Numbered from the stretch's first letter, positions 7,105 to 46,772 are shown. The stretch is DNA of 64,000 bases from an uncultured Thermodesulfobacteriota bacterium (GCA_964634465.1 CAZWLY010000004.1:160683-224682); one strand, 5' to 3'. Notes: a model not told the origin generated them from the sequence alone. Program-made: numbers and translations.

Positions 7105-7291
7105 GGCGACGCCCTCCCGGCGACGATTTCTTTCAGAGTGATGATCCGGTTACGCCGCCATTATCAATCATAGATGGAAACGGCCCAAATGCCAAGGAAG
7201 GCCCCTCGGACCCAGCCGCCTGGCCGCCGATTGCGCCTTCAAACCGGTTCTGATATCCTGCCCGTCGAATCATCGACCAAGGGGGGCGGAC

Positions 7292-7861
7292 ATGGAACGG
7301 CGGGTGGCGGCGGCCGGATCGGGCTTCATCTTCGAGGAAGATCAGCTCGTCCGCAACAGCCCCTGGGGCTGGCTGGCCCTGGCCGGGGCGGGACTGATCG
7401 TCGCCGTCTTCGGCTACGCCCTGTACCAGCAGTTGGTCCTGGGGCGGCCCTGGGGGGATCGGCCCATGTCCGACGCGGCCCTGATCGCCCTCGCCCTGCC
7501 CATGTTCGCCCTGGCCGGGTTTCTGGCCGTGCTCGGCTTGGCCGGCCGGCTGACCGTCCGGGTGAGGCCGGCCGAACTCCAGATCCGCTACTTTCCCCTT
7601 GTCAACAAAACCATACCCTGGGCCGACATCGCCGCCTGCACCGCCCGGAGTTATCGTCCCCTGTTGGAGTACGGCGGTTGGGGCGTCCGCTGGGGCGGTC
7701 GAAAGAGGGGCTGGGCCTACAGCGTCTCGGGCAATCGGGGCGTCCAATTGGAGCTTGCGAGCGGCAAGCGGATTCTGATCGGCTCCAAGCGAGCCGAGGA
7801 GCTGGAGGCGGCGTTCATCGAGGCCGGCGGGCCGACTCCGCCGCCCTCGACGACCCGCTGA
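7292..7861 (+). CDS. Membrane protein with two N-terminal TM helices and a bacterial PH-like (YdbT/bPH_2-like) domain
   Basis: Hydrophobic helices WGWLALAGAGLIVAVFGYALY and LIALALPMFALAGFLAVLGLAG, then a beta-rich segment resembling membrane-flanked bacterial PH domains. No catalytic motif. Confidence 0.4.
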   Translation: MERRVAAAGSGFIFEEDQLVRNSPWGWLALAGAGLIVAVFGYALYQQLVLGRPWGDRPMSDAALIALALPMFALAGFLAVLGLAGRLTVRVRPAELQIRYFPLVNKTIPWADIAACTARSYRPLLEYGGWGVRWGGRKRGWAYSVSGNRGVQLELASGKRILIGSKRAEELEAAFIEAGGPTPPPSTTR

Positions 7862-7945
7862 CCCGCCTTCCCCTGCCTTCAAAACGCGGCTTGTTGTAGA
7901 ATTAGGCGGCGGGACCGTCAACCTGATTCGCCGATCGGAGTAGCC

Positions 7946-9682
7946 ATGCTCTGCTGTCACATCACCCACGAGGCCTCGCGCAAGTTCGGCGGCATCGGCG
8001 CCGTCCTGGCCGGGCTGATCGCATCCTCGGCCTACACCGAGGCATTCGACAAGACCCTTGTCTACGGGCCGCTGTTCGACCGAACAGGCCCGGTCGGCTC
8101 CCGGATCGAGGCCGGCGGCGAGGTGGTCTACTCCGGCCCGGACGGTTTCGACGACGGCGGCCTGGCCGACCTCTTTCGTCCCATTGAACGGCGCCACGGC
8201 GTCGGTCTGGTCTACGGCCGGCGGCTGATGGTCGATGAACTGGCGCCGGAACGCTCCCGTGAGGTGGACGTCGTCCTCATCGACGTGACGACCATGCCGG
8301 CCGAGAAGGCCGATCTTTTGAAGTACGGTCTGTGGGAGAACTTCGGCCTCGAGTCGGACCGCTACCCGGACTGGGACTACGAGCAGTACATTCGCCTGGC
8401 CGGCCCCTACCTGGACGTCGTCGAGGCCCTCTACCCCCAGGAGAGGGGCGCCGTCCACCTGGCCCACGAGTACATGGGCCTGCCCTCGGCCCTGACGGTC
8501 GTCTCGGCCCAGCGGGCCGGGCGGCGGACGGCGGACAAGACCTTCTTCTACGCCCACGAGGTCGCTCCGGCCCGGGCCATCGTCGAGAATCTGCCCGGCC
8601 ACGAGATCGCCTTCGACAACCTCCTCCGGCTGGGTCTGAAGGAGGGCCGGGTCTTGGAGGACGATTTCGGCTCCCAGGCCCACAACTATCGCTCCGAGCT
8701 GGTCAAACGGGCCGAGCATCTGACCGGCGTTCTGGCCGTCAGCGACAACATCCGGGACCAGTTGCTCTATTTTTACCCGGCCATCGGGGCCGATAGAATC
8801 CATGTCGTCTACAACGGCGTCGGCTTCGGGTCGATCGGCTTCGAGGACAAGATGAAAGACCGGGAGCTGATCAAGGATTACTGCGAGACGCTTTTCAACT
8901 ACCGGCCGGAGATCATCATCAGCCACGTCACCAGGCTGATCGTCAGCAAGGGTCTGTGGCGCGACGTCGCCTTCCTCTACCGCCTCGATGAACACCTGGC
9001 CCGGGCCGGGGTCAAGGGCTTCTACATCCTGGTCTCCAGCCTGATCGCCTCGGGCCGTCCCCACGACGAGATCAGGCGCATGGAGGCCGAGTACGGCTGG
9101 CCGGTCTTCCATCGCCGCGGCTGGCCGGACCTGGAGGGGGCCGAGGCGGACATCTACGAGTTTCTGACCCTGTTCAACGCCCGCTCCAGGGCGGTCAAGG
9201 GCGTCTTTCTCAACCAGTTCGGCTTCTCGAACGAGGCGGCCGGCAGCCGGGTGCCGGCCGGAGCCGACACCCTGACCCTGCGTTCGGCCAGCGACATGGA
9301 ACTGGGGCTGTCCACCTACGAGCCCTTTGGCATCGCCCAGTTGGAGACCTATCCCTTTGGCGGCGTGCCGGTCTTGAGCCGGGCCTGCGGCTGTTCGTTT
9401 CTTCTGGACGCCGCCGCGCCGAAGGATACCCACCTGGTAATCGATTTCGCCGCCCCGCCGGCCGAAATGGGGCTCGACGTCGATGACGCGAAGGCGCTCA
9501 AGAACATGTCGGCCGATACGCGCCGGCTTGTGGAGGAGGCGGTCATCGACCGCCGGGCGGCCGAAGCGTTCAAGCTCGTCTGGCCCGAACGGCGACGGGA
9601 GCTCTTCAATACCATGCGGGCCGCGGCCGCCGATCTGGGTTGGGAGGCCATCGGCCGGCGGGTGGTGGCGGCCATCGGCTGA
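7946..9682 (+). CDS. GT3-family (eukaryote-type) glycogen synthase-like glycosyltransferase
   Basis: N-terminal HITHEASRKFGGIGAVL resembles the FEVAWEVANKVGGIYTV motif of GT3 glycogen synthases. The C-terminal LSTYEPFGIAQLETYPFGGVPVLS aligns with the yeast Gsy2 segment [23 protein letters not shown]. 578 aa. Confidence 0.5.
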   Translation: MLCCHITHEASRKFGGIGAVLAGLIASSAYTEAFDKTLVYGPLFDRTGPVGSRIEAGGEVVYSGPDGFDDGGLADLFRPIERRHGVGLVYGRRLMVDELAPERSREVDVVLIDVTTMPAEKADLLKYGLWENFGLESDRYPDWDYEQYIRLAGPYLDVVEALYPQERGAVHLAHEYMGLPSALTVVSAQRAGRRTADKTFFYAHEVAPARAIVENLPGHEIAFDNLLRLGLKEGRVLEDDFGSQAHNYRSELVKRAEHLTGVLAVSDNIRDQLLYFYPAIGADRIHVVYNGVGFGSIGFEDKMKDRELIKDYCETLFNYRPEIIISHVTRLIVSKGLWRDVAFLYRLDEHLARAGVKGFYILVSSLIASGRPHDEIRRMEAEYGWPVFHRRGWPDLEGAEADIYEFLTLFNARSRAVKGVFLNQFGFSNEAAGSRVPAGADTLTLRSASDMELGLSTYEPFGIAQLETYPFGGVPVLSRACGCSFLLDAAAPKDTHLVIDFAAPPAEMGLDVDDAKALKNMSADTRRLVEEAVIDRRAAEAFKLVWPERRRELFNTMRAAAADLGWEAIGRRVVAAIG

Positions 9683-9728
9683 TCGGCCGCCGGGGCCGGC
9701 CCCGTCAGCCTGATCCAAACAACTTTTT

Positions 9729-10787
9729 TCAGGTCAAGACCCGGATCCGACCCTTGGGCTCGGCCTCCACCCGGCCGATGATCGACGCCTCGACCCCCCG
9801 GCCGGCCAGATCGGCCATCAGTCCCTCCGTCCGCTCCTCGGGTGCGGCCATCAGCAGGCCGCCCGAGGTCTGGGCGTCGGCCAGCACGCCGAGGATGAAT
9901 GGATCGACGCCTTCGGCGACGTCCACCGCCTTGGCGCAAAAGGCCTGGTTGGCGTGGCTGCCGGCCGGCGTCATCCCCATCCGGGCCAGGCCGAGAACCT
10001 CCTCCAGAATCGGCGTCCTGGCCGCCTCGATTATCAGGCCCACTCCCGAGGCCTGGGCCATCTCCAGGCCGTGGCCCAGGAGCCCGAAGCCGGTGATGTC
10101 GGTCGCCGCCCTGACCCCGGCCGCGATCATGGCCTCGGCCGCCCGGTCGTTGAGGTCGGCCATGACCTCGATCATCCGTCGCTCCAAATCGGGCGAGCCC
10201 AACCGGCCCTTGAGCGCCGTGGCCAGGATGCCCAGCCCCAGCGGCTTGGTCAGGATCAAGACTTGGCCGGGGCGGGCGGCGGCGTTGGTGACGACCCGGT
10301 CGGGGTGGACCAGGCCGGTGACCGACAGCCCGTACTTGATCTCGGGATCATCCACCGAATGCCCGCCGACCAAGAGCGCCCCGGCCTCCCGGATCTTGTC
10401 CAGACCGCCCTTGAGTATCTCCAGCAGGACGCCCTTGTCCATGTTCTTGGCCGGGAAGCAGACGATGTTCATCGCCGTCAGGGGCTTGCCGCCCATGGCG
10501 TAGACGTCGGACAGGGCGTTGGCGGCCGCGATCTGGCCGAAGGCGTAGGGGTCGTTGACGAGAGGGGTGAAGAAATCGACCGTCTGGATCAGGGCCGTGT
10601 CCTCGTTGAGTTTGATGACCCCGGCGTCGTCAGAGCTCTCCCGTCCGACCAGCAGACGGGGGTCGGCGTCGAGCGGCAGGCGGTCCAAAACTTCGGCCAG
10701 GTCCCCCGGCCCCAGTTTGGCCGCTCAACCGGCCGCGGTCACCGTCTCGGCCAGACGGGGAGGATCCTTGATTCGATCGGCGCTCAC
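9729..10787 (-). CDS. selD: Selenide,water dikinase SelD, a selenoprotein with in-frame UGA (Sec) at 10725..10727
   Basis: The track ORF 9729..10688 matches SelD (DFFTPLVNDPYAFGQIAAANALSDVYAMGGKP). Reading through the TGA at 10727..10725 (minus strand) continues in frame to a GTG at 10787 preceded by GGAG. This encodes VSADRIKDPPRLAETVTAAG-U-AAKLGPGDLAEVLDRLPLD, aligning to E. coli SelD ([24 protein letters not shown]) with Sec at the Cys17 position. Confidence 0.8.
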
Positions 10788-10872
10788 GTCTTCTCGCTCC
10801 TTACGTTCTCGGCTTCCAACAACTCGGCCAGTTTCCGCCCGCCGGGAGTCAGGCTCCGGCCGACGCGTTTGA

Positions 10873-11691
10873 TCAGGAAGAAGTCGCGTTGATGTTAAGC
10901 CCCTCCACCTCGAGCTGGACCAGGCGGCCCGAGCGGACGTCGTCGCCCACGGCCAGGCTGGAGAGGATCGACGCCCCCAGTCCGGCCAGGATGGCCTGGC
11001 GGACGGCCTGGGTCGAACCCAGCTCGGCGACGACGTTGAGGTCGGCCAGCGACACGCCCAGCCTGTCCAAAGCCTGGGCGGTCACCATCCGGGTCCCGGA
11101 GCCGGCCTCGCGCAACAGAAAAGGCAGGTCGGTCAAACCGGCCGGCTTCAGTCTCGGCCCGCCGGCCGGCTTCAGATCGGGCGGGGCGACCAGGATCAGC
11201 TCGTCCTGGCAGCAGGCGGCGTACTTCAGTTTGGGGTCGTCCAGCCTGGCCCCGATGACGCCCATCTCCAGCTCGCCGGCGGCGACCTTGAGGGCGATGG
11301 AGCGGGTGTCGGCCACGGTCAGCCGGACGATCAGCTCGGGATAGAGGGAGCGCATCTGGGCCAGGTAGGCCGGCAGAAGGTAGTGGCCGGGGATGGTCGA
11401 GCCGCCCACGGACAGCTCGCCCTTGACCTGCTCCGAGGCCTCGGCCACCGCCTCCAAGGCCTCGTCGCGCAGGGCGATGAGCTTCAAGGCGTACTCGTGG
11501 AGGACCTCAGCCTGACGGGTGGGGGCCACGCCCCGCCCCAGCCGGTCGAAGAGCCGGACGCCGAGTTCGTCCTCCAGGGCCTTGATGTGGCCGCTGACCG
11601 TCGGCTGGGACAGGTAGACCGCCTCGGCCGCCCGAGACAGCGAGCCCATCTCGTAGACTTTGGCGAAGACCTGGAGGCGATGAAGGTCCAT
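10873..11691 (-). CDS. LysR-family transcriptional regulator
   Basis: N-terminal HTH LHRLQVFAKVYEMGSLSRAAEAVYLSQPTVSGHIKALEDELGVRLFDR and LysR substrate-binding domain topology. Contains an in-frame 24-bp tandem duplication at 11138..11185. Confidence 0.85.
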   Translation of the reverse strand: MDLHRLQVFAKVYEMGSLSRAAEAVYLSQPTVSGHIKALEDELGVRLFDRLGRGVAPTRQAEVLHEYALKLIALRDEALEAVAEASEQVKGELSVGGSTIPGHYLLPAYLAQMRSLYPELIVRLTVADTRSIALKVAAGELEMGVIGARLDDPKLKYAACCQDELILVAPPDLKPAGGPRLKPAGLTDLPFLLREAGSGTRMVTAQALDRLGVSLADLNVVAELGSTQAVRQAILAGLGASILSSLAVGDDVRSGRLVQLEVEGLNINATSS

Positions 11692-11975
11692 TTAGACGTC
11701 ACCTATCTGGTTCATAGATGAAACCTATTATAAAGGACGGGTCGGGGAAGGCAAGGCAAGATAGAGACCGGAACCTTGTTGCGGCCTCCGGTGTGGTTTT
11801 TTGTTTACTTTTGGCTTGACAACCGGCTACCCGAGGAGTAGTTGCTACGCTTCTTCGAGCGGTCGTTTTGGTTCTCGGCCGGCCTTCCCAGGGCTAAAAC
11901 GATGGGTGTTTCACCTTTGTCGGACCCCATTCTTGGGATAGAATCTCTCAAGGGTTCCAATCGGGAGATCGGGCT

Positions 11976-14009
11976 ATGGGCGGCGTCTTTCTGCGGGCGG
12001 CCTACCACCACGAGTGGCTTCTGACCAACGGCCGGGGCGGCTACGCCCTGGGCTTCGGCAACTTCTTGAACGAGCGCAAGTACAATGGCTTGCTCGTCGC
12101 CGGGCTCGACGGCTTCAAGCGGGTCCACGTCCTGGCCTCGCTGGAGGAGGCGGTCGAGTGGCGTGGAGCCAGGTTCCACCTCGACGCCAACCACTACCCG
12201 GACACCATCCATCCCCAGGGTTACCGCCACATCGTCAAGTCCTGGCCCCGGCCCTACCCGAGCGCGCTCTACTCGGCCGACCCGGTCAATCCCGATTTTC
12301 TGATCCTCAAGGAGCTGTTCATGATCGCCGGGGTGAACGCGGTCGTGGTCAAGTACACTAACCTGGGCGCGTTCCCGATCAACTTCACCATCCGGCCCAA
12401 GCTGACCCTGCGCGACCACCACACCGTGAGCCGGCCCGGCCGCTGGGAGGCCGAGGAGGTGGAGATCGAGTTCCACGGCGACTCGTTCTCGGTCTACAAG
12501 CCGGGGCTCGAAGACGAGGTCTGGGGCTATACCGAGTCCGGCGGCATGGCCGATAACCGGATCGTTTTCAGAAACGTCTTCTACCCCCTGGAGGCGGCCC
12601 GGGGCTACGAGGCCGTGGAGGACCTGCTCTCCCCGGCCGACATCCACTTCCGCCTTACGCCGGGGGCCAGCAACCGGTTGGTCTTCTCCCTGGGGCGGCT
12701 CGAGGAGGCCGTGGTCCGGGCCGAGGCGGCCGAGGCCGACTACCGGCGCCTGCCCCTGCCGGCCGACCATCCGGAGCGACTGAAGGGCCAGCCCGACTGG
12801 CTGTCGCTGATCAGGTTCAACGAGCCGGTCTTTTCCCACGGTGAGTACCGCCGGATCCTGGAGGGAGCCGCGGCCGACTTCTTGACCGAGGGCGACTGCC
12901 TGGCCGGCTACCCCTGGTTCGGGCCGTGGGGCCGGGACAGCCTGATCGCGCTCTCCGGCATTCGGTTGTTGAAAGGCGGCCGCCGGCTGGCGGTGCGCAT
13001 CCTCAAGAAATACGGCCGGGCGATAAGAAACGGCCTCTTGCCCAACACCTTCGGCGAGGGCGGCCAGGGGCTCAACTATCTGTCGGTGGACGCTCCGCTG
13101 TGGTTCGTGCTGCGCTCGTTCGAGATCGCGCCCCGGGACAAGGAGCTTTTCGCCAGGGCGGGTAAGATCGTGCTCAACTACCTGTTCAACCAGGACCTGC
13201 CCTTCTTCGCCGCCGAGGACGGCTTGATCGAGCTGCGCGAAGGGCCCTGGGCGCTGACCTGGATGGACGCCAAAGTCTATGACGAGCCGGTCACGCCGCG
13301 CTTCGGCAAGCCGGTCGAGATCAACGCCCTGTGGTTCAACGCTCTCAACGGCCTCCTCAAGATGGCCGAGGCCCAGGGCTTGAAGGGCGGCGCCAGACTG
13401 GCCGCCCGACCCTACTCGATCTCCTGCCGGGACCTTGAGGACCTGGCCGGGCACGTCAAGCGCGGTCTGGCCGGTTTCGTCGGCGACGATTACCGCGACG
13501 ATTACCTGGCCGATCGGATCGACGCCTCCGGGCCGGTCTTTGAGATCCGGCCCAACGCCGTCATCGCCGCCGGCCTGCCCTTCGAGCCCTGGGCCAGAGA
13601 CGTCCAGGCCATGGTTCTGGAGACGGCCCGGCGCGAGCTTCTGACACCCTTCGGCCTCAGAAGCCTGAACGTCGGTCACCCGGCCTTCAAGAACAAGTAC
13701 CTCGGCGGTCAAAAACAGCGCGACCTGGCCTACCACCAGGGCACGGTGTGGGCCTGGCCTCTGGCCTACCTGGCCCGGCTGCACTTGAGGGTCCACGGCG
13801 ACAAACCGAAGCGGAAGCTGATCAAGGATCTCAGCGCTCTCATCTGGCGCTTCAGGGACGGCTTTCTCAAGGACCAGATCGCCTCGGTGGCCGAGATCTG
13901 GGACGGCCTGGAGCCGACCATTCCCAAGGGCTGTCCGGCCCAGGCTTGGTCGGTGATGGCCGTCCTGGAGATCGAGCACCTGATCGACGGACTGGAGGGC
14001 GGGCGGTGA
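11976..14009 (+). CDS. Amylo-alpha-1,6-glucosidase / glycogen debranching enzyme (GDE C-terminal, GH133-like)
   Basis: N-terminal GDE_N-like region plus TFGEGGQGLNYLSVDAPLWFV and DAKVYDEPVTPRFGKPVEINALWFNAL, characteristic of archaeal/bacterial amylo-1,6-glucosidases. Confidence 0.75.
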   Translation: MGGVFLRAAYHHEWLLTNGRGGYALGFGNFLNERKYNGLLVAGLDGFKRVHVLASLEEAVEWRGARFHLDANHYPDTIHPQGYRHIVKSWPRPYPSALYSADPVNPDFLILKELFMIAGVNAVVVKYTNLGAFPINFTIRPKLTLRDHHTVSRPGRWEAEEVEIEFHGDSFSVYKPGLEDEVWGYTESGGMADNRIVFRNVFYPLEAARGYEAVEDLLSPADIHFRLTPGASNRLVFSLGRLEEAVVRAEAAEADYRRLPLPADHPERLKGQPDWLSLIRFNEPVFSHGEYRRILEGAAADFLTEGDCLAGYPWFGPWGRDSLIALSGIRLLKGGRRLAVRILKKYGRAIRNGLLPNTFGEGGQGLNYLSVDAPLWFVLRSFEIAPRDKELFARAGKIVLNYLFNQDLPFFAAEDGLIELREGPWALTWMDAKVYDEPVTPRFGKPVEINALWFNALNGLLKMAEAQGLKGGARLAARPYSISCRDLEDLAGHVKRGLAGFVGDDYRDDYLADRIDASGPVFEIRPNAVIAAGLPFEPWARDVQAMVLETARRELLTPFGLRSLNVGHPAFKNKYLGGQKQRDLAYHQGTVWAWPLAYLARLHLRVHGDKPKRKLIKDLSALIWRFRDGFLKDQIASVAEIWDGLEPTIPKGCPAQAWSVMAVLEIEHLIDGLEGGR

Positions 14010-15322
14010 GAGTCCTCTTTCTGACCTGGGAGTTTCCCCCGCTGATCTCCGGCGGGCTGGGAACGGCCTGCTACGGCATGGTCCGCTCTTTGCTGGGCCG
14101 GGGGGTCGAGATCGACCTGGTCCTGCCGGCGAGGGAGGAGGTCTACTTCAAGCTCCGCTCGCCCCGGGACGCCGACGAGCTGCCGGTCTCTTTTCTGAGC
14201 GCCTCGGCGGCGGCCAAAGAGGTCGAGCGGACCGCCGAGCTGATCGAGCGGCTGGAACTGGTCGGCGTCAGCGCCATCCCCGAGACCTACCTCTCCCCGG
14301 CGGCCAGTCACCAGGCCCTGTGGACCGAGTTGGCCCGAACGTCCTCGGCCGGCCGAGCCAAGGTCTTCGCCCGGATCGAGAGACAGCTTTTGGGCGGCGA
14401 GAGGCTGTTCAGAAAGGTCCAGGAGATGGCCGACCGGGTCCAGCTCGTCGCCGACAGGCTCGACTTCGACCTCATTCACGCCCACGACTGGCTGACCTAC
14501 CCGGCCGGGCTGGCCCTGGCCGAGCTGTCCGGGAAGCCGCTGGTCGCCCACATCCACGCCACCGAGTTCGACCGGGCCGGCGGCGTCGGCGACGAGCGCA
14601 TCCACCAGATCGAGTACGCCGGCCTGTCCGCCGCCGACACGGTCATCGCCGTGTCGCGCTACACCGCCGAGATGGTCATCAACCGCTACCGGATCTGGCC
14701 GGCCAAGATGCGGGTCGTCCACAACGCCTTCGACCTGCCTCCGGTGAGGCTGGCGGACAAACGCCGGATCTTCAAACACCCGCTGGTCCTCTACCTGGGC
14801 CGGATCACCGTCCAGAAGGGGCCGGACTACTTCCTGGAGGTGGCCCGCCGGGTCCTGAAGCGCCACCCCAAGACCCAGTTCGTCATGGCCGGCGCCGGCG
14901 ACATGATGCGCTCGATCCTTCACCGCTCGGCCTCGATGCGCTTGAGGCAGCGCTTTCTCTTCACCGACTTTCTGAACCGCCGCCAGGTGGAAGAGATCTT
15001 GAAAGCGGCCGACATCTTCATCATGCCCTCGGTCTCCGAGCCCTTCGGCATCGTCCCCCTGGAAGCCATGGCCCACGGCGCGGCGGCCATCATCTCCAAA
15101 CAGTCGGGCGTGGCCGAGGTTTTGACCAACGTCCACAAGGTCGATTTCTGGGACGTGGACCAGATGGTCGATCTGGTCTGCCGGCTCATCGAGGACCCGG
15201 AGGAGAGGCTGGCCCTGGCCCGGGCCGGCCAGGAGGAGGTGTCGCGCATCCAGTGGGACGAGGCGGCCGAGAAGATCGAGGCGGTCTACGCCGAAACCCT
15301 CGAGACGGCCGGGCGGAGGTAG
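14006..15322 (+). CDS. Archaeal-type (GT4/GT5-like) glycogen or alpha-glucan synthase
   Basis: Start GTG at 14006 overlaps the stop of the upstream gene (GTGA). VRVLFLTWEFPPLISGGLGTACYGMVRSLLGRGVEIDLVLP resembles the N-terminus of Pyrococcus-type glycogen synthases. C-terminal GT-B E...FG...E motif: IMPSVSEPFGIVPLEAMAHG. Confidence 0.65.
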   Translation: MRVLFLTWEFPPLISGGLGTACYGMVRSLLGRGVEIDLVLPAREEVYFKLRSPRDADELPVSFLSASAAAKEVERTAELIERLELVGVSAIPETYLSPAASHQALWTELARTSSAGRAKVFARIERQLLGGERLFRKVQEMADRVQLVADRLDFDLIHAHDWLTYPAGLALAELSGKPLVAHIHATEFDRAGGVGDERIHQIEYAGLSAADTVIAVSRYTAEMVINRYRIWPAKMRVVHNAFDLPPVRLADKRRIFKHPLVLYLGRITVQKGPDYFLEVARRVLKRHPKTQFVMAGAGDMMRSILHRSASMRLRQRFLFTDFLNRRQVEEILKAADIFIMPSVSEPFGIVPLEAMAHGAAAIISKQSGVAEVLTNVHKVDFWDVDQMVDLVCRLIEDPEERLALARAGQEEVSRIQWDEAAEKIEAVYAETLETAGRR

Positions 15323-15325
15323 GCG

Positions 15326-16519
15326 GTGCTCAACATCGTCTTCTACTTCCAGGTCCACCAGCCCTATCGACTGCGGCCCTACAGCGTCCTCGACATCGGC
15401 CGGGACCACGACTACTTCGACGAGCGCCTCAACCGGATGGTGGCCGAAAAGGTCGGCCACAGGTGCTATCTGCCGACCAACCGCCTCTTCCTGGAGCTGA
15501 TCGAGCGCTTCGAGGGGAGATTCAAGATCGCCTTTTCGATTACCGGCACCGCCGTGGAGCAGTTCAAACGCTACACGCCCGAGGTGCTCGATTCGTTCAA
15601 GGCCCTGGCCGCCACCGGCTGCGTCGAGTTCCTGGGCGAGACCTATTACCACTCTTTGGCCTTTCTCTTCGACGAGGAGGAATTCCTGGCCCAGGTCAGG
15701 CTGCACAAGGAGTTGATGCAGCGGGAGTTCGGCTTCACGCCGATCGTCTTTCGAAACACCGAGTTGATCTACCAGGACGAGCTGGGCGAGCTGGTGGCCG
15801 ACCTGGCCGGCTTCAAGGTCGTCCTGGCCGAAGGGGCCGACCGGGTGCTCGATTGGCGTTCGCCGCTGTACGCCTACCAGAACTACTCCCGGCGGCTGTT
15901 TTTGCTCTTGAAGTACTACACCCTCTCCGACGACATCGCCTTCCGCTTCTCGGATCGCTCCTGGGCCGAGTGGCCGCTGAGCGTAACCAAGTTCGTCGAT
16001 TGGGTGGCCCGGCTCGGCCTCAATGAGCACCGCGGCCGGAACCTTTTTTTGAACCTGTTCATGGACTACGAGACCTTCGGCGAGCACCAGTGGGCCGAGA
16101 CGGGCATCTTCGAGTTTCTTCGCCGGCTGCCCGGGGAGGTTCTGAAGCAGCCCCACCTCGGCTTCGCCTGGCCCTCGGACGTCCTCGACCTGACCGACTA
16201 CCCGACCGAGGCGCTGTCCGTGCCCCAGCCGGTCTCCTGGGCCGACACCGAGCGCGACCTTTCGGCCTGGATGGAGAACGATCTGCAGCTCAACGCCCTG
16301 GAATCGTTCTATATCCTCCTGGAGACGATCAAAGAGCAGGGCCGGAACGATCTTCTGGAAGAGGCTCGGCGGCTGTCCACCTCGGATCATTTCTATTACA
16401 TGTCGACCAAGTACTTCCAGGACGGCGACGTCCACAAGTACTTCTCGCCCTACGGCGCGCCCGAGGAGGCCTATCTTTATTACATGAACGCCCTGGCCGA
16501 TTTAGAGGAGAGGCTGTAG
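15326..16519 (+). CDS. Glycoside hydrolase family 57 protein (alpha-amylase / 4-alpha-glucanotransferase type)
   Basis: VFYFQVHQPYRL, the hallmark N-terminal GH57 motif, with overall GH57 catalytic-domain composition. Confidence 0.8.
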   Translation: MLNIVFYFQVHQPYRLRPYSVLDIGRDHDYFDERLNRMVAEKVGHRCYLPTNRLFLELIERFEGRFKIAFSITGTAVEQFKRYTPEVLDSFKALAATGCVEFLGETYYHSLAFLFDEEEFLAQVRLHKELMQREFGFTPIVFRNTELIYQDELGELVADLAGFKVVLAEGADRVLDWRSPLYAYQNYSRRLFLLLKYYTLSDDIAFRFSDRSWAEWPLSVTKFVDWVARLGLNEHRGRNLFLNLFMDYETFGEHQWAETGIFEFLRRLPGEVLKQPHLGFAWPSDVLDLTDYPTEALSVPQPVSWADTERDLSAWMENDLQLNALESFYILLETIKEQGRNDLLEEARRLSTSDHFYYMSTKYFQDGDVHKYFSPYGAPEEAYLYYMNALADLEERL

Positions 16520-16726
16520 GATGTACTCTTCCCCGCCACGACCTCGATTCCGGCTCGGCCCGTCGGTCGGGTTTGAGCCTTCTTCACGGCCGCGGCCGAT
16601 ATTCCGGGCGAGGCGCTGCGCCCGCTTGGCGGGCCTCGGCGATCTTGGCCGACCCGTTCCGGTCCGGCCAAGCCGCCGGGTGGGGATTACATGAACGCCC
16701 TGGCCGATCTGGAGGAGAGGCTGTAA
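16480..16726 (+). repeat. 40-bp direct repeat of the GH57 gene 3' end (16480..16519 and 16687..16726), separated by a 167-bp GC-rich spacer
   Basis: ttacatgaacgccctggccgatTTAgaggagaggctgtaG versus ttacatgaacgccctggccgatCTGgaggagaggctgtaA. Both encode YMNALADLEERL* and all three differences are synonymous. The second copy is not attached to any long ORF. Confidence 0.8.
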
Positions 16727-16785
16727 CTTGGGGGTATAATGGGACTGTCCGGAACCGAGCCTGACAGTGTAATCAGGGAGAAACG

Positions 16786-19338
16786 ATGAACCTGCGCCGC
16801 TTCTACGTCAAGCCTCACATGCCCGGCCGGCTCAAGCCGCTGTTCGAGCTGGCCTACAACGTCTGGACTACTTGGGACCAGGAGGCGATCAGGCTCTTTT
16901 CGCGCATCGACCCGGCCTTGTTTCGAAAGGTCCACCACAACCCGGTCGAGTTCATCCATCGTCTGGGCAGCGAGCGCCTGGCCGAGCTGGCCAAGGACCC
17001 CGGCTTCCTGTTCGAGCTGGAGCAGGTCTGGTACAAGTTCATCACCTACCTCTCCTTTGAGGGGACCTACTTGAGCGAGGCCGGCGAGGAGAAGTCCTTC
17101 GGCGAGGGCGACATCATCGCCTATCTGTCCATGGAGTTCTCCCTCCACGAGTCGATCCCCATCTATTCCGGCGGCCTGGGAATCTTGGCCGGCGACTACC
17201 TGAAGGCCGCCTCCGACGTCGGCCTGCCCCTGGTCGGCTTCGGATTGTTGTACCGCTTCGGTTACTTCACCCAGCGCATCAACCTCCACGGCCTCCAGGA
17301 AGAGGAGTACAAGGAGAACGTCTGGCACCTGAAACCGGTCGAGGAGGTGCTCGACCCGGAGGGCCAGCCGATCGTCTTCGGCGTCCCCCTCAAGGATGTC
17401 GAGGCGGCGGTCAAGCTGTGGAAGATCAACGTCGGGCGGACCACGCTCTATCTTCTGGACACCAACCTGGAGGACAATCCGCCCCAGGTCCGGGCGATCA
17501 CCGACATGCTCTACGATCCCGACCGGGACGACCGGATCGAGCAGGAATTGATCCTGGGCCGGGGCGCCCGGGTGGCCATGCGCCGGCTGGGCATCGAGCC
17601 CAAGGTCTACCACTTGAACGAAGGCCACTCGGCGTTCATCATCCTGGAGCGTTTGAAGGAATTGATGCTGGGCGAGGGCCGGTCTTTCGAGGAGGCGGCC
17701 AACATCATCCGCAACTCGACCGTCTTCACCACCCACACCCCGGTGATCGAGGGCAACGAGCATTTCGACGAGGAGTTGATCCTCGATTACGCCGCCGCCG
17801 ATCTCAAGAAACTGGGGCTGTCGGCCGACCGGTTCCTGGACCTGGGTCGGGTCTCGGGCCGGGGCAAGAGCTTTTGGCTGCCGGCCCTGGCCATTCGCTT
17901 CTCCCGCTTTACCAACGGCGTCTCGCCGATCCACGCTCAGGTGAGCCGCGGTATGTGGCGGCCGCTGTTCGCCGAGTTGCACGAGCTGGAGATACCGATC
18001 CACTCGATCAACAACGGCGTCCACCTGCCGACCTGGATGAGCAAGGACATCGCCTTCCTGTTCGACCGTTACGTCGGGCCGGACTATCTCCACAAGGCCG
18101 AGAAGCCCGAAGTCTGGGAGAAGGTCGCCGCCATCCCGGACGCCGAGTTGTGGGAGGCCCATCTTCGGGCCAAGCGGGACCTGATCTCCTTCGTTCGCCG
18201 CCGCCTGATGGCCGAGATGGAGCGCAAGGGCTTTGCCGAGTCCAAGCTTCGTGAGATCGAGGACGTGCTTTCGCCCCACGCCCTGACCATCGGCTTCGCC
18301 CGCCGCTTCGCTCCCTACAAGCGGGCCAACCTCATTCTTTCCAATCCGGAGCGGCTCAAGGCCATCCTGACCCATCCCCAGCGACCGGTCCAGATCATCT
18401 TCTCGGGCAAGTCCCACCCGGCCGACCTGGAAGGCAAGAGGATCATCCAGCAGGTGTTGCGCTTCATCCGGGACCACGAGCTGGAGACCAGGGTCGTCTT
18501 TGTCGAAGACTACGACATGGACGTCGCCCGGCACCTGGTCACCGGGGTGGACGTCTGGCTCAACACGCCCCTCAAACCCCTGGAGGCCAGCGGCACCTCG
18601 GGCATGAAGGCCGGCATCAACGGCGTGCTGAACTTGAGCGTCATGGACGGCTGGTGGCCGGAGTGCTACAACGGCGAGAACGGCTGGGCCATCACCGCCG
18701 GTGAGGCCATCGAGAACCTGGAGGCCAAGGCCGCGGCCGAGGCCAACCAGATATACGAACTCCTGGAGGAAGAGATCGCCCCGATGTTCTTCGAGCGCTC
18801 CGAGGGCGACATCCCCCGGGACTGGGCCCAGTGGATGAAGAACGCCATCGAGACCGTCGGCCGGGGCTTCAACATCCACGCCATGCTCAGGGGTTACCTC
18901 TACTCCTTTTACCTCCCCGAGACCGAGACCAGCGCCCGGCTGGCGGCCGACAAGGGCAAGGGGCTCAAGGCCCTGACCAAGCTCAAGAAAGACATCGATC
19001 GCTACTGGTCCAAGATCTATATCCGGGACTACTTCACCTCCATCGACGACCACGTTCCGGCGGTGGAAGAGGAGGTGACGGTCGATTGCTACGTCCAGGT
19101 GGACGACGCTCCGGTCGAACTCGTTATGGCCGAGGTGGTCTACACCTACGGCGAAGACGGCGGCCGCCTGGAGCGTATTCCCCTGAGTTTCCAGGAGTCT
19201 TACCCGGACAAGGTGGCCAAGTTCAGCGGTTCGTTCAGGCTCAAGGAGCCGGGCCTCCAGGAGATGGGGGTCAGGGTCCGGCCGGCCGACCCGCTCTTTT
19301 CGGAGCTCAACCCCAATTACGTCATCTGGGCCGGATAG
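16786..19338 (+). CDS. glgP: Alpha-glucan phosphorylase (GT35, maltodextrin/glycogen phosphorylase)
   Basis: 850 aa with an N-terminus typical of the alpha-glucan phosphorylase family (MNLRRFYVKPHMPGRLKPLFELAYNVWTTWDQEAIRLF). The long ORF 16687..19053 on the minus strand is its antisense artifact. Confidence 0.85.
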   Translation: MNLRRFYVKPHMPGRLKPLFELAYNVWTTWDQEAIRLFSRIDPALFRKVHHNPVEFIHRLGSERLAELAKDPGFLFELEQVWYKFITYLSFEGTYLSEAGEEKSFGEGDIIAYLSMEFSLHESIPIYSGGLGILAGDYLKAASDVGLPLVGFGLLYRFGYFTQRINLHGLQEEEYKENVWHLKPVEEVLDPEGQPIVFGVPLKDVEAAVKLWKINVGRTTLYLLDTNLEDNPPQVRAITDMLYDPDRDDRIEQELILGRGARVAMRRLGIEPKVYHLNEGHSAFIILERLKELMLGEGRSFEEAANIIRNSTVFTTHTPVIEGNEHFDEELILDYAAADLKKLGLSADRFLDLGRVSGRGKSFWLPALAIRFSRFTNGVSPIHAQVSRGMWRPLFAELHELEIPIHSINNGVHLPTWMSKDIAFLFDRYVGPDYLHKAEKPEVWEKVAAIPDAELWEAHLRAKRDLISFVRRRLMAEMERKGFAESKLREIEDVLSPHALTIGFARRFAPYKRANLILSNPERLKAILTHPQRPVQIIFSGKSHPADLEGKRIIQQVLRFIRDHELETRVVFVEDYDMDVARHLVTGVDVWLNTPLKPLEASGTSGMKAGINGVLNLSVMDGWWPECYNGENGWAITAGEAIENLEAKAAAEANQIYELLEEEIAPMFFERSEGDIPRDWAQWMKNAIETVGRGFNIHAMLRGYLYSFYLPETETSARLAADKGKGLKALTKLKKDIDRYWSKIYIRDYFTSIDDHVPAVEEEVTVDCYVQVDDAPVELVMAEVVYTYGEDGGRLERIPLSFQESYPDKVAKFSGSFRLKEPGLQEMGVRVRPADPLFSELNPNYVIWAG

Positions 19339-19629
19339 GCCCGGGGCGGACCGAACGGCAGCCCCCCAAACACGGCCTTAAGCCGCCGGTTTCGGCCGAT
19401 GACCTCGGGCGCTGGCTTCTCTTGCCCGCCGATCCTTCGCCGGCGCGGGGTCCGTTCGATCACCTCTTCTTCGAGACGGCCTTCATGGCCTTGACGCCCT
19501 GAGAGACGCCCAAAACAGGCGAGCCTCTCGAAGCCCGAATTCCGAGATAATCGAGTCGTCGATTGCCGCCCCGGCAGGCGGGTTTGTAATGGATTTATCG
19601 CGGGTTCAACCCCCATCAAGGAGGGGCGT

Positions 19630-19923
19630 ATGTTTGAGACCCGGAAAGAGTTTCTGGAAGAGGTGATGCGGCGGGCCGGCTTGGGCTCCATTGAGGAGGC
19701 CGACAGAGTCGCCCGAGTCGTCATCGGGTTGATCAAGGCTCGGATCGGGCCCGAGCTGTCCGAGAAGGTGGCCGAGGTGTCTCCGCCGGACTTGAGCAAG
19801 GGCTGGCGGGCCATCGCCCTGCCCGGTGAGGCCATGGAGTTGCAGGAGATGATGTTCGAGGTGGAGGAGGTGGGCGAGGAAGCGAAGCCGGCGGCGGACA
19901 CCCGCCCGGCCGAGTACGGCTAA
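19630..19923 (+). CDS. DUF2267-family small protein
   Basis: MFETRKEFLEEVMRRAGLGSIEEADRVARVVIGLIKARIGPELSEKVAEV matches the DUF2267 pattern. GGAGGGG Shine-Dalgarno upstream. Confidence 0.45.
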   Translation: MFETRKEFLEEVMRRAGLGSIEEADRVARVVIGLIKARIGPELSEKVAEVSPPDLSKGWRAIALPGEAMELQEMMFEVEEVGEEAKPAADTRPAEYG

Positions 19924-20079
19924 GCCCGGTTCGAGGCGAACCGGGCCATATTTCATGGACAGGTCTTCGGCGGCGAGGTTCGGTTTCCGATTCTTGATCT
20001 CGACGCCCTATCGAGCGCAGCACGCCGGGGCGGCCTGTAGCGGCGCGTTCGGCCGCCGGCCCCGGCCACCTTGGCCGGG

Positions 20080-22311
20080 CTAGCCGGGGCCGGAATCGCG
20101 CCGGCGGTCCCGGCCGGTCGATATAAGCGCCCCGTCCAAGACTTCCCGAACCTTTTGGAGCAGGCCGGCGAGGCGGTAGGGCTTGCCGATGAATCCGGCC
20201 ACGCCTTTGTCCGCCAATTCTTCGATCCGGTCTTCCACCGGATAGCCGCTGGCGATGATGATCTTCACCTCCGGATCGAGCTTCATCAGCTCCTCGAGAC
20301 ATTGATCCCCGCCCATGCCGGGCATTCCCAAATCGAGGATGACCAGCTCGATCTCGCCCCGTTGGTCCCGGTAGATATCGAGGGCCGCCTTTCCGCTCGA
20401 GGCGGTCAGGACCCGATAGCCGTACTGACTCAACAGGTCCTGGGCGACCTCCAGGATCGGGATCTCATCGTCCACGACCAGAATCGTCTCGACGCCGGCC
20501 GGGATGTCCTCTTCCGGTTCCTCGACGGCTCCTTCTGCGGCCGCACTCGCCGCCGGCAGGTAGACCTTGAAGATGGTCCCCTGGTCGATTTCGCTGTAGC
20601 AGGTGATCTGGCCGCCGTGGGCCTTGACGATGCCGTAGGCCGTGGCCAGTCCCAGCCCGGTGCCTTGGCCGATCTTCTTGGTGGTGAAGAAGGGCTCGAA
20701 TATGCGGTCCAGGGTTTCCCTGTTCATGCCCGTACCGGTGTCCTGGATCGACAACTGGACGTAACGCCCAGGCTTCAATCCCAGATAGCGACGGCAGTGC
20801 TCCTTGTCCAGGAACACATTCTCCGTCTTGAAGATCAACCGGCCGCCGTCGGGCATGGCGTCGCGCGCGTTGGTGGCCAGATTCAGGATGATCTGCTCCA
20901 ACTGGGTCGCATCGGCGTCGATCGGCCACAAGTCCTCGGCCAGGTGGACCTCGATGTCGATCGTCTTGGGGAGGGCGCTTCCCAGCAACCCGGCGGCCTG
21001 CCCGATCTCGTCGTTGAGGTCGAGCGACTGTTTTTGACTTTCCACCTTGCGGCTGAAGGTCAAAAGCTGGCGGACCAGCTCGGTGGCCCTCTGGATCGAC
21101 TTGTCTATCTTGGTCAGGTACCCGGCGGCCGAATCGGAGGGGTCGCCCTTTATCAGCAACAGTTGGACGCTTCCGGAGATGACCTGGAGAATGTTGTTGA
21201 AGTCGTGGGCCACCCCGCCGGCCAGGGCGCCCACCGCTTCCATCTTTTGGGCCTGTCTGAGCTGAGCCTCCATCTTTCTTTGTTCGGTGACGTCACGCAG
21301 GTTGATGACGCTGCCGACTGGGCCGCCGTCGCTATTCCGCATCACCGCGGCGCTGACGCTGACGTCGAGAATCCGGCCCCACTTGTCGTAGCGGCGGGTT
21401 TGAACACTGGAGAAACTCTCGCCCCGCTTGACCCGTTCGATTATCTCCAATGTCTCGGGCTTGGCCTCCTGGGGCACGAAATCTATTCGCCGGCCCAAGA
21501 CCTCCTCCAGTCTCCAGCCAAAGACGCGGGTGAAAGCCGGATTGAGATAGGTGACCCTGCCGGTCATGTCGTAGAGCACCACCGGGTCGGGCGCGACCTC
21601 CAGTATCTTGTGGTAGCGCTCTTCGCTCTCCCGGAGCGCCTCTCTGGCTCTTTTATCGTCGGTTACGTCGATGAAGCTCTCCACGATGCCCAACCTTTCG
21701 CCGTCAGCCCCCAGGTACGGCGCCGCCGTGGCGAAGCAAGAGATCGTCGCCCCGTTGCGGAGGTCCATTTCGGCTTCATATTCGACAAGTTCCCGCCCCT
21801 CCATGATGGCGGTCATCGGGCAATCGAGGGTGTGGCAGAGGGGGACGGTCCAGGTTTCGTGGCACTTCCGGCCGACTATTTCGTCCTTGGGGAGACCCAA
21901 CAGGCCGGAAAGTCTATCGTTTACTCGAAGGACGGTGAAGTCCCTGCCGATCACGGTCATGGCCATGGCCGGGGCGTTGAACGCCTGATCCAGTTCGGCG
22001 TAGGCGAGCTTGAGGGAGTTCTCCGAACGTTTGATCGATTTGAAGAGAGGCGTTATCCAGGCCAGGCCGATCACCATGAGCGCTGAAATCGCCAGCGCAA
22101 CCAGTTCCACGCTCAAGTCACGGGGGAGAACCCCGTTTCCCGACGCGACATGATAGAGAGTGATGCTTCGCCGCCAGCCCATCAGGATGATGGCGAGAGA
22201 CAACACCAGCCATCCGCTCCGCCGGCCAGTGATGGAGATCAAGCGCAGGGCCATGAAGGCGGCCGCGAACTGCAGCAGGACGGATGTCCCCAGAATCGAC
22301 AAGATGAGCAT
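20080..22311 (-). CDS. Hybrid sensor histidine kinase (N-terminal TM region, PAS domains, HisKA, HATPase_c, C-terminal receiver)
   Basis: The H-box AHDFNNILQVISG and the N/G1/G2 boxes of the HATPase domain are present. C-terminal receiver ILVVDDEIPILEVAQDLLSQYGYRVLTASSGKAALDIY...LDLGMPGMGG. Confidence 0.85.
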   Translation of the reverse strand: MLILSILGTSVLLQFAAAFMALRLISITGRRSGWLVLSLAIILMGWRRSITLYHVASGNGVLPRDLSVELVALAISALMVIGLAWITPLFKSIKRSENSLKLAYAELDQAFNAPAMAMTVIGRDFTVLRVNDRLSGLLGLPKDEIVGRKCHETWTVPLCHTLDCPMTAIMEGRELVEYEAEMDLRNGATISCFATAAPYLGADGERLGIVESFIDVTDDKRAREALRESEERYHKILEVAPDPVVLYDMTGRVTYLNPAFTRVFGWRLEEVLGRRIDFVPQEAKPETLEIIERVKRGESFSSVQTRRYDKWGRILDVSVSAAVMRNSDGGPVGSVINLRDVTEQRKMEAQLRQAQKMEAVGALAGGVAHDFNNILQVISGSVQLLLIKGDPSDSAAGYLTKIDKSIQRATELVRQLLTFSRKVESQKQSLDLNDEIGQAAGLLGSALPKTIDIEVHLAEDLWPIDADATQLEQIILNLATNARDAMPDGGRLIFKTENVFLDKEHCRRYLGLKPGRYVQLSIQDTGTGMNRETLDRIFEPFFTTKKIGQGTGLGLATAYGIVKAHGGQITCYSEIDQGTIFKVYLPAASAAAEGAVEEPEEDIPAGVETILVVDDEIPILEVAQDLLSQYGYRVLTASSGKAALDIYRDQRGEIELVILDLGMPGMGGDQCLEELMKLDPEVKIIIASGYPVEDRIEELADKGVAGFIGKPYRLAGLLQKVREVLDGALISTGRDRRRDSGPG

Positions 22312-26286: not shown

Positions 26287-26485
26287 AGACTTCAGTTATG
26301 TGATTAACGTGAGGAGTTTGTTCTGCATTTCCGAATATACACTCATGTCGATATTTTCAACCTACCCAACGACAATGTTTTTCCGACAATCGTCTATAAT
26401 TCATTGATTGTCGACAGATTTTTTATTTGAAAAAATTTTTTGTTTTTGGACTCAAGTTGTTGAATTCATCCTTGTCCGCCGGTTT

Positions 26486-27163: not shown

Positions 27164-27266
27164 TCTCGACTCATTCTATCGCCCTTTGCGCCCGGCGGAC
27201 AAATCGGGCCACAACCGGCTTGTCTCCCGGCCGGAAAAATGAAAGAATAGGCGAGGGGGAGATTGT

Positions 27267-46769: not shown

Positions 46770-46772
46770 TAC

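What the first reader, a model, noticed from the sequence alone, without database searches (positions are those of the whole stretch)
16480..16726. Duplicated 3' end of the GH57 gene: two 40-bp copies differing only by synonymous changes, separated by 167 bp
The last 40 bp of the GH57 ORF (ending TAG at 16519) recur at 16687..16726 (ending TAA). The three nucleotide differences are TTA versus CTG (both Leu) and TAG versus TAA (both stop), so both copies encode YMNALADLEERL*. The second copy is not in frame with any gene. This looks like the scar of an insertion or recombination event at the gene 3' end that regenerated the coding end. One possibility is an integrative element that carried its own copy of the target and was later deleted. 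The other is a duplication. The first copy has AT-richer codons that are atypical for this genome (TTA, TAG).
Basis: seen in the sequence. Interest (0 to 1): 0.5.

Follow-up and report, generated by a model that had tools for sequence, protein, structure and literature searches.

The report
Recombination scar duplicating GH57 gene end
A 207-base insertion at the end of a glycogen-metabolism gene carries its own silently different copy of the gene's last 13 codons, so the enzyme is unchanged and the original gene end is stranded downstream; it is real, but it is an ordinary recombination scar, most like the footprint of an integrating mobile element.

Summary
A 41-nt direct repeat (16479-16519 and 16686-16726) holds the last 13 codons plus stop of the GH57 gene. 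It has three differences, all silent (TTA/CTG Leu; TAG/TAA stop). Two separate sequencing runs give 100% identical contigs across it, so it is not an assembler artefact. Five relatives at 75-77% protein identity keep the same GDE-GT-GH57-GlgP operon without any duplication, and so do about 160 other GH57 loci. Without the 207-nt insert, the gap between the stop codon and glgP is 59 nt, close to the 56-91 nt seen in relatives. The downstream orphan copy carries the clade-typical CTG. The functional copy carries the only TTA among 1,927 operon codons. The orphan is therefore probably the native gene end. The 166-nt spacer is single-copy, 72% GC and non-coding. It has no Rfam, phage, plasmid or protein homologue, but it folds better than shuffled controls (z -2.7 and -3.5). 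My best reading (about 0.35) is an attL/attR-type scar of an integrative element that brought a replacement gene end, reduced to the size of a 'microCIME'. One-sided homologous import and de novo duplication with captured filler DNA remain live rivals. Interest is low to moderate.

The parts
15326..16519 (+). GH57 glycoside hydrolase gene (397 aa). It is the third gene of a GDE-GT-GH57-GlgP glycogen operon.
   Evidence: Translation. An identical protein, P0001, and 8,000 homologues carry PF03065. Gene calls on the identical Logan contigs appear.
16479..16519 (+). Repeat copy 1. It forms the functional last 13 codons plus TAG stop and carries the rare TTA Leu codon at 16502-16504.
16520..16685 (.). 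Single-copy spacer of 166 nt (167 nt if the repeat is counted as 40 nt). It is 72% GC, shows no codon-phase signal, and has no known homologue.
   Evidence: Composition and frames. No Rfam hit. No second copy in the window by BLAST or covariance model. No match in 171 related loci by BLAST, nor in the 100 of them scanned with the covariance model. No match in phages, plasmids or viral contigs. No protein homologue.
16530..16686 (.). Predicted self-contained fold. A closing helix (16530-16537 with 16679-16686) encloses three GC-rich hairpins. The right end of the fold is flush with the junction to copy 2.
   Evidence: Minimum free energy is -91.4 kcal/mol with z = -2.74 on the + strand, and -92.3 kcal/mol with z = -3.48 on the - strand. 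None of 200 shuffles folds as well. The same helix appears in the centroid of the 321-nt fold. This is one sequence only, so there is no covariation evidence.
16570..16665 (+). Weak resemblance, in frame +2, to the glycine-rich loop of PEP carboxylase (LLHGRGRYSGRGAAPA...AIL..P). This could be a decayed captured gene fragment or chance.
   Evidence: Pfam PF00311 E = 0.012. NCBIfam PRK00009 E = 0.0033. PDB 1fiy E = 0.62. All are far below the curated cut-offs. None of 40 control peptides gave any hit. No homologue was found among 5.8 billion or 1.84 billion proteins.
16686..16726 (+). Repeat copy 2, the orphan and probably native GH57 3' end (CTG, TAA). It lies in the GH57 frame but behind two stop codons.
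   Evidence: Four of five relatives have CTG at this Leu codon, one has TTG and none has TTA.
16727..16785 (+). Native 59-nt leader of glgP, with TATAAT at 16735-16740, a hairpin at 16744-16768 and GGGAG at 16776-16780.
   Evidence: Read from the sequence. The hairpin is I13. Its length matches the 56-91-nt gap in relatives L091, L089 and L082. No sigma-70 promoter or terminator was called.
16786..19338 (+). glgP, an alpha-glucan phosphorylase of 850 aa (DUF3417 + Phosphorylase + GlgP_C).
   Evidence: Exact protein found on Logan contigs with Pfam annotation.

Best explanation
A 207-nt (69-codon) segment was inserted at the 3' end of the GH57 gene, and it brought its own functional copy of the last 13 codons plus stop. 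The gene now ends in the incoming copy (16479-16519; TTA, TAG). The native end (16686-16726; CTG, TAA) was pushed 207 nt downstream, where it still sits 59 nt in front of glgP. The most likely mechanism is site-specific integration of a mobile element whose attachment site mimics the gene's 3' end. That leaves attL (copy 1) and attR (copy 2), as e14 does with icd and icdC in E. coli. The element is now a gene-less 166-nt remnant, the size class described as 'microCIME'. What is shown: the repeat, its silent differences, that it is real, that relatives lack it, and that the orphan carries the clade-typical codon. What is inferred: an integrase made it, and the interior was lost or never existed. 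Present-day effect (inferred): the enzyme is unchanged. A very stable GC-rich RNA structure now separates GH57 from glgP in the operon, and it could alter coupling or mRNA stability.
For: The repeat covers exactly the gene end including the stop. All three differences are silent, with P of about 0.01-0.06 if unconstrained. This is expected if both copies evolved as working gene ends. The gene-proximal copy carries the codon that is foreign to this genome: TTA occurs once in 1,927 codons. The distal orphan carries the clade-typical CTG. The e14/icd/icdC arrangement has the same layout of a functional gene end at one side of the element and a C-terminal pseudogene fragment at the other, with mainly synonymous differences (PMC13626634). 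The remnant size of 166-207 nt falls in the 130-220-bp range of gene-less microCIMEs found between att repeats at the 3' ends of rpmG, rpsI, fda and rplL (PMC7563491). Relatives have the same operon with no duplication and a gap of 56-91 nt, and removing the insert restores 59 nt. The structure is real in two sequencing runs. The spacer is a discrete unit: it is single-copy and its fold closes flush with the right junction.
Against: No integrase or other element gene is called across window 5976-21220, which covers about 10 kb upstream of the insert but only about 4.5 kb downstream. Ten further ORFs in the window's atypical-composition regions gave no integrase either; the remaining ORFs were not annotated. 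None of about 160 other GH57 loci has a duplicated 3' end. No viral contig carries the repeat or pieces of the spacer. An element family that targets GH57 is therefore undocumented. The spacer is 72% GC and strongly structured, whereas attP arms are usually AT-rich (my knowledge, not tested). Its internal repeats are not significant once multiple testing is allowed for. All three differences can also be read as ordinary GC-to-AT transitions from a CTG...TAG ancestor, which needs no foreign DNA. The published microCIMEs were all found next to an ICE or IME, and this one stands alone.
Confidence: 0.35

Rival explanations
1. One-sided homologous import. This could be homology-facilitated illegitimate recombination, or a Campbell-type single crossover of a small circular fragment. 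DNA from a related strain recombined homologously inside GH57 and joined illegitimately 40 nt before the recipient's stop. That installed the donor's gene end plus 166 nt of the donor's downstream sequence and left the recipient's own end as an orphan.
For: It explains the silent-only differences, the native-looking orphan and the short insert without requiring loss of a whole element. The GH57-glgP spacer differs completely among relatives (56, 88, 91, 288 and 334 nt, all unrelated sequences), so a donor with a different downstream sequence is plausible. The spacer's 72% GC lies within this genome's intergenic range of 0.52-0.82, as expected for a close relative. Both HFIR and single-crossover duplications of the homologous segment are documented (PMC3240628).
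Against: No donor-like locus was found. Only 1 nt of microhomology (A) is present at the illegitimate junction. The lower GC3 of the GH57 tail, which could have marked an imported tract, is also present in relatives that lack the insert. Whether this organism is naturally competent is unknown.
Confidence: 0.22
2. De novo duplication with captured filler DNA, through template switching during replication or repair, or through end-joining. The last 41 nt were copied twice around 166 nt taken from elsewhere. Three later GC-to-AT transitions (two in copy 1, one in copy 2) produced the differences. Only a version that kept the GH57 C-terminus and the glgP leader survived.
For: Relative to the clade consensus CTG...TAG, all three differences are GC-to-AT transitions, which is the commonest spontaneous class (my knowledge). 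No element genes are needed. One frame of the spacer weakly resembles an internal piece of PEP carboxylase (E = 0.003-0.012; 0 of 40 controls hit), as captured gene fragments would. The third 'difference' may simply be the repeat boundary, since the sequences diverge completely after GCTGTA.
Against: An unconstrained orphan should collect most changes, and mostly non-silent ones. Instead it still encodes the exact peptide and keeps the typical codon, while the constrained copy has two hits in a single codon. No source copy exists in the 64-kb window. The PEPC-like peptide has no real homologue among 5.8 billion or 1.84 billion proteins. It also breaks the near-invariant GRGG motifs (my knowledge of the PEPC consensus; the E. 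coli alignment is), so it is either very old or chance.
Confidence: 0.25
3. Assembly or strain-mixing artefact that stitched two alleles of the gene end together.
For: The source is a metagenome assembly. One Logan contig set breaks inside GH57 at 16054-16081.
Against: Contigs built independently from two runs (SRR15988951 and SRR15988953) are 100% identical through both copies and the spacer. The longest exact repeat is 23 nt, shorter than the k = 31 I understand Logan to use (my knowledge), so every junction k-mer must occur in reads.
Confidence: 0.03
4. The insert is a functional structured RNA or DNA module, either an intercistronic regulator or stabiliser of the GH57-glgP transcript or a small mobile RNA-like element. 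On this reading the repeat is a by-product of its insertion.
For: The spacer folds significantly better than shuffles on both strands, with a closing helix that bounds it.
Against: There is no Rfam family, no second copy and no homologue, so no covariation can be tested. Equal stability on both strands points to DNA-level palindromes rather than a strand-specific RNA. No promoter or terminator was called.
Confidence: 0.08

Closest known systems
e14 (and phage 21) integration into the 3' end of icd in E. coli K-12, which leaves the icdC pseudogene fragment
   Same: The functional gene ends in element-supplied sequence that differs from the native end mainly by synonymous changes. The native C-terminal fragment is stranded as an orphan at the far side (PMC13626634, citing Hill et al. 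1989).
   Different: e14 is a 15-kb element with an integrase between the two copies, and the icd homology is much longer (about 165 bp, from my memory). Here only 166 nt with no gene lies between 41-nt repeats, and no integrase was found.
microCIMEs: decayed cis-mobilizable elements of 130-220 bp between att repeats in Streptococcus salivarius
   Same: They are gene-less remnants of the same size, bounded by direct repeats that include the 3' end of a protein-coding target gene (PMC7563491).
   Different: The published microCIMEs lie in tandem with an ICE or IME at known integrase targets (rpmG, rpsI, fda, rplL) in low-GC Firmicutes. This one stands alone, at a GH57 gene, in a 65% GC genome whose closest named relatives are annotated as Deltaproteobacteria MAGs, and no cognate element is known.
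Homology-facilitated illegitimate recombination and single-crossover (Campbell) integration
   Same: Both produce an insertion anchored in a homologous gene segment. A single crossover duplicates the homologous segment on either side of the insert (PMC3240628).
   Different: The duplications described there were 109-950 bp and arose from engineered plasmids. Here the repeat is 41 nt with at most 23 nt of uninterrupted identity, and no donor is known.

Membership tests
att-flanked integrative-element remnant (CIME / microCIME) | Direct repeats bound the element, and one repeat forms the 3' end of the target gene | tested here: met
   The 41-nt repeat at 16479-16519 and 16686-16726 includes the stop codon of GH57.
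att-flanked integrative-element remnant (CIME / microCIME) | No genes inside; size 130-220 bp | tested here: met
   The spacer is 166 nt with no codon-phase signal and no significant family or homologue hit. The size range comes from PMC7563491.
att-flanked integrative-element remnant (CIME / microCIME) | Derives from, or shares att sites with, an ICE, IME or prophage that encodes an integrase of that specificity | tested here: not met
   No integrase among the genes called across window 5976-21220, about 10 kb upstream and about 4.5 kb downstream of the insert, nor among ten further ORFs tested. No duplicated GH57 end in 166 loci tested. No viral contig holds the repeat or pieces of the spacer. 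Absence in these collections is not proof of absence.
att-flanked integrative-element remnant (CIME / microCIME) | Excision or mobilisation by a cognate integrase (attL x attR) | not testable with these tools
   This needs raw reads (circular-junction or empty-site reads) or an experiment.
Prophage-type gene-end replacement (e14/icd-like) | The element-proximal functional end differs from the orphan native end by silent changes | tested here: met
   There are three silent differences. The functional copy has the rare TTA, and the orphan has the clade-typical CTG.
Prophage-type gene-end replacement (e14/icd-like) | Phage or element genes lie between the two copies | tested here: not met
   Only 166 non-coding nt lie between the copies.
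MITE / IS insertion with target-site duplication | Terminal inverted repeats at the exact ends, a short identical duplication, and multiple genomic copies | tested here: not met
   The best end pairing starts 10 nt inside the left junction. The repeat is 41 nt and not identical. No second copy was found in 64 kb by BLAST or covariance model.
Diversity-generating retroelement (template and variable repeats at a gene's 3' end) | Differences confined to adenines of the template repeat, with a reverse transcriptase nearby | tested here: not met
   If the orphan copy were the template, two of the three differences (C to T, G to A) fall at C/G positions and only the stop-codon A/G is at an adenine. 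No reverse transcriptase is among the called neighbouring genes.
Any curated RNA family (Rfam 15) | A covariance-model score at or above the gathering threshold | tested here: not met
   The only hit is spurious: HTT-AS1_3 at 12.3 bits against a threshold of 70, E = 9.5. The whole window yields only tRNA-Cys.
PEP carboxylase (PF00311 / PRK00009) gene fragment | Significant match to the family profile | tested here: inconclusive
   Scores of 14-15.6 bits (E = 0.003-0.012) over about 30 residues of the Gly-rich loop are far below the cut-offs of 22.4 and 815 bits. None of 40 control peptides hit. No protein homologue was found at all.

The most novel reading that the evidence does not exclude
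The 166-nt insert plus one repeat could be a complete minimal integrative module: a bare attP-like unit of about 207 bp. It would carry a recoded replacement end for its target gene, fold into a closed three-hairpin structure, and remain mobilisable in trans by an unseen integrase. Alternatively it could be a previously undescribed structured intercistronic RNA that was selected because it uncouples glgP from GH57.
Probability: 0.07. Interest if true: 0.6.

Novelty: new member of a known kind. Interest (0 to 1): 0.25.

Why it matters
It is a clean small example of how bacteria tolerate insertions at the ends of conserved genes: the incoming DNA supplies a working replacement end, and the old end survives as a fossil. 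If it is the scar of an element, it points to an undescribed integrative element that uses the GH57 3' end as its attachment site in an uncultured lineage whose closest named relatives are annotated as Deltaproteobacteria MAGs. It would also extend the 'microCIME' class beyond streptococci. In practice, annotators should recognise the orphan 41-mer as a pseudogene fragment, and the intercistronic gap as an insertion rather than a native regulatory region. It changes no protein and shows no new mechanism, so its wider importance is modest.

Tried and rejected
- **Rfam:** a permissive scan of 16300-16900 and a gathering-threshold scan of the whole window found no family.
- **Promoters, terminators, tandem repeats:** the promoter/terminator scan found nothing. 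TRF found no tandem array.
- **Internal repeats in the spacer:** a 27-nt pair at 74% identity and three TTCCGG at 54-55-nt spacing looked like arm-type sites. They are not significant once all hexamers and window sizes are considered (887 of 2,000 shuffles reach the same maximum hexamer count).
- **Imported-tail test:** GC3 of the last 87 codons of GH57 is 0.80 against 0.91 for the rest (p = 0.012). The same dip occurs in relatives without the insert, so it is a property of the gene and not evidence of import.
- **Local tandem duplication followed by deletion:** rejected. The sequences after the two copies are unrelated, and the spacer has no second copy within 16 kb upstream or 47 kb downstream.
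- **GH57 paralogue as a source:** none in the window.
- **Searches for the spacer or repeat elsewhere:** phages and plasmids gave only chance-level GC-rich hits. Viral contigs gave nothing in four scans. Metagenome contigs gave nothing for any sequence encoding YMNALADLEERL*.
- **Related loci:** BLAST of the spacer against all 171 fetched loci found only the window's own Logan contigs. A single-sequence covariance model found nothing in the window or in 100 of those loci.
- **Coding potential:** six-frame family search, a word-indexed search of 5.8 billion proteins and a full phmmer scan of 1.84 billion representatives gave only the weak PEPC resemblance.
- **The 57-aa ORF at 16521-16694:** it has a good SD and ATG but no codon-usage signal and no homologue, so I treat it as non-genic.
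- **DGR and MITE readings:** rejected on their defining features (see the membership test).
- **Source of the sample:** looking up the exact GH57 protein failed, and a literature search for the SRR accessions found nothing.

Full report
**1. The observation**

Direct reading confirms the finding. The last 40 nt of the ORF ending at 16519 recur at 16687-16726. With the preceding A, the repeat is 41 nt (16479-16519 and 16686-16726). A degenerate pattern for the repeat matches only these two places in 64 kb and never in 100 shuffles.

The three differences are TTA versus CTG (two bases) and TAG versus TAA. Both copies encode YMNALADLEERL*. Simulation of three unconstrained substitutions gives P = 0.01-0.03 that peptide and stop stay unchanged, or 0.06 if only transitions are allowed. 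TTA at 16502 is the only TTA in 1,927 codons of the GDE, GH57 and GlgP genes.

One correction is needed. The copies start 207 nt = 69 codons apart, so the second copy lies in the GH57 frame, behind TAG (16517) and TGA (16574).

**2. Is it real?**

The exact GlgP, DUF2267 and GDE proteins of the window are found on Logan contigs from SRR15988951, -52 and -53. The contigs from -51 and -53 that span the locus are 100% identical to the window across both copies and the spacer. The longest exact repeat is 23 nt, shorter than the k = 31 that I understand those assemblies to use (my knowledge, not a tool result). The junction k-mers must therefore be present in the reads of two runs. An artefact specific to one assembler is very unlikely.

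**3. Context**

The gene is a GH57 family protein (PF03065). It is the third gene of an operon: GDE (11976-14009), GT (14006-15322), GH57 (15326-16519) and GlgP (16786-19338).

The nearest relatives in the protein collection are only 75-77% identical. Five of their loci (L081, L082, L088, L089, L091) have the same four-gene order. None has a duplicated gene end.

Their GH57-glgP gaps are 56, 88 and 91 nt, or 288 and 334 nt. The two long ones share an unrelated, hairpin-rich insert of about 52% GC. The window's gap is 266 nt, and it becomes 59 nt once the 207-nt unit is removed. A scan of 166 GH57 loci from genome and metagenome collections found no other 3'-end duplication. This is a one-off event in a gap that varies across the clade.

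**4. Which copy is native?**

At the variable Leu codon the relatives have CTG (4 of 5) or TTG (1 of 5), never TTA. The surrounding AACGCCCTGGCCGATCTGGAGGA is conserved at the DNA level. The orphan copy matches this and sits at the relative-like distance from glgP, so it is most likely the native end.

The stop codon is less informative: TAG in 4 of 5 relatives and TGA in 1 of 5. A lower GC3 in the last 87 codons (0.80 against 0.91) at first looked like an imported tract. The same dip occurs in relatives without the insert, so it carries no such meaning.

**5. The spacer**

- It is 166 nt, 72% GC, with equal GC in all three codon phases. Intergenic regions of this window range from 52% to 82% GC, so its composition is not foreign.
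- It has no Rfam match, no tandem repeat and no promoter or terminator call.
- It has no second copy in the window by BLAST or by a single-sequence covariance model.
- It has no relative in the 171 fetched loci by BLAST, in the 100 of them scanned with the model, in phage or plasmid collections, or in viral contigs.
- It does fold better than shuffles: z = -2.74 on the + strand and -3.48 on the - strand, with 0 of 200 shuffles as stable. A closing helix (16530-37 with 16679-86) encloses three hairpins and ends flush with the right junction.
- Equal stability on both strands and the lack of any homologue mean this cannot be taken further than 'a discrete, palindrome-rich unit'.
- Apparent internal repeats (TTCCGG three times at 54-55-nt spacing) are not significant after correction.

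**6. A weak lead in the spacer**

Frame +2 of the spacer is open. Its residues 17-48 resemble the glycine-rich loop of PEP carboxylase: Pfam E = 0.012, NCBIfam E = 0.0033, and E. coli PEPC 1fiy E = 0.62. None of 30 shuffled-spacer peptides and none of 10 real out-of-frame peptides from this window gave any hit at E <= 0.1. The E-values are therefore not inflated by composition.

Even so, no protein among 5.8 billion shares even three 5-mers with it. A full phmmer scan of 1.84 billion representatives found nothing at E <= 0.001. The peptide also breaks the near-invariant GRGG motifs (my knowledge of the PEPC consensus). It is either a very decayed captured fragment or chance (corrected P of roughly 0.02-0.07). 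It does not discriminate between the models.

**7. Mechanism**

The silent-only pattern means the differences arose while each copy served as a working gene end, or arose in the constrained copy only. Three models fit.

- **(a) Site-specific integration.** An element whose attachment site mimics the gene end integrated, giving attL (copy 1, element-derived right part) and attR (copy 2, native). e14 at icd in E. coli has the same layout: a functional gene end on one side, the icdC C-terminal pseudogene on the other, and mainly synonymous differences (PMC13626634). The small size is no longer an obstacle. Gene-less 'microCIMEs' of 130-220 bp between att repeats at the 3' ends of protein genes are documented in Streptococcus salivarius (PMC7563491). 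Against this model: no integrase across window 5976-21220 (about 10 kb upstream, about 4.5 kb downstream), no cognate element found anywhere, and a GC-rich structured spacer.
- **(b) One-sided homologous import from a related strain** (HFIR or a Campbell-type crossover; PMC3240628). This explains the same facts without an element, but no donor is known and the junction microhomology is 1 nt.
- **(c) De novo duplication around captured filler DNA, followed by three GC-to-AT transitions.** This needs no foreign allele. It does require the unconstrained orphan to have stayed peptide-perfect while the constrained copy took two hits in one codon.

I rank (a) about 0.35, (c) about 0.25, (b) about 0.22, a functional RNA module about 0.08 (not exclusive of the others), and an artefact about 0.03.

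**8. Consequence (inferred)**

The GH57 protein is unchanged. If the operon is co-transcribed, a structure of -91 kcal/mol now lies between GH57 and glgP and could affect coupling or mRNA decay. The two mismatched positions cut the repeat into 23- and 14-nt identical blocks. That is near or below the length usually needed for efficient RecA recombination (my knowledge), which may help the insert persist.

**9. Verdict**

The interpretation as a recombination or insertion scar is supported in outline, but the specific mechanism is unresolved. It is a new instance of a known kind of footprint, of low to moderate interest.

Noticed in passing
L081 4195-4482 and L088 2695-3028 (relatives' GH57-glgP gap): Two relatives at 77% identity share a different insert of about 200-250 nt directly after the GH57 stop. 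It is about 52% GC and rich in hairpins, and L088 carries about 46 nt more than L081. The gap after GH57 therefore seems to be a recurrent insertion site in this clade.
   Followed up: partly
window 16521-16694 (+): A 57-aa ORF starts at an ATG 2 nt after the GH57 stop, preceded by a strong SD-like GAGGAGAGG inside the gene end, and it stops inside repeat copy 2. The product is rich in Pro and Arg, shows no GC3 signal and has no homologue. It is probably not a gene, although it could be translated by coupling.
   Followed up: partly
window 16054-16081: In the SRR15988953 Logan assembly, one contig ends at 16081 and the next starts at 16054, inside GH57. The SRR15988951 contig runs straight through. 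This may reflect low coverage or a minor variant in that sample.
   Followed up: no
window 16256-16519 and the homologous part of L081, L082, L088 and L089: The last ~87 codons of GH57 have lower GC3 than the rest of the gene (0.80 against 0.91). This holds in this genome and in four of the five relatives checked (L091 shows only 0.74 against 0.70), so it is a conserved property of the gene tail rather than a sign of import.
   Followed up: yes
window 16735-16740: A perfect TATAAT lies 9 nt after the orphan copy's stop. If it is the -10 box of a glgP promoter, the -35 region would fall inside the orphan GH57 end, which could explain why that 41-mer is preserved. The consensus scan called no promoter.
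   Followed up: partly
window 35204-35241 and 36797-36834: Two 38-nt blocks, 82% identical (CGATAYCCC.TC.CT.GCGGCGGGGTTG.T.AT.TTCG), flank the ORF at 35338-36735. Each looks like a small hairpin followed by a T-rich tract. The flanking sequence is otherwise unrelated.
   Followed up: partly
window 42459-44442 and 45738-49170: Two sets of diverged direct repeats (70-74% identity; spacing of 1,208 nt and about 2,413 nt, plus one 689-nt-spaced pair at 47010/47699) indicate tandem paralogous genes. They were not annotated here.
   Followed up: no
window 24362-27266: A stretch of about 2.9 kb has lower GC (0.57-0.58) and lacks the genome's typical high-GC3 ORFs. The only family hit there is a response-regulator receiver domain (25756-26286, - strand).
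   Followed up: partly
window 61900-64000: The region has a strong A excess on the + strand (AT skew +0.25). The listed - strand ORFs have a GC pattern typical of antisense frames and no Pfam hits. A long + strand gene probably runs off the end of the window.
   Followed up: partly
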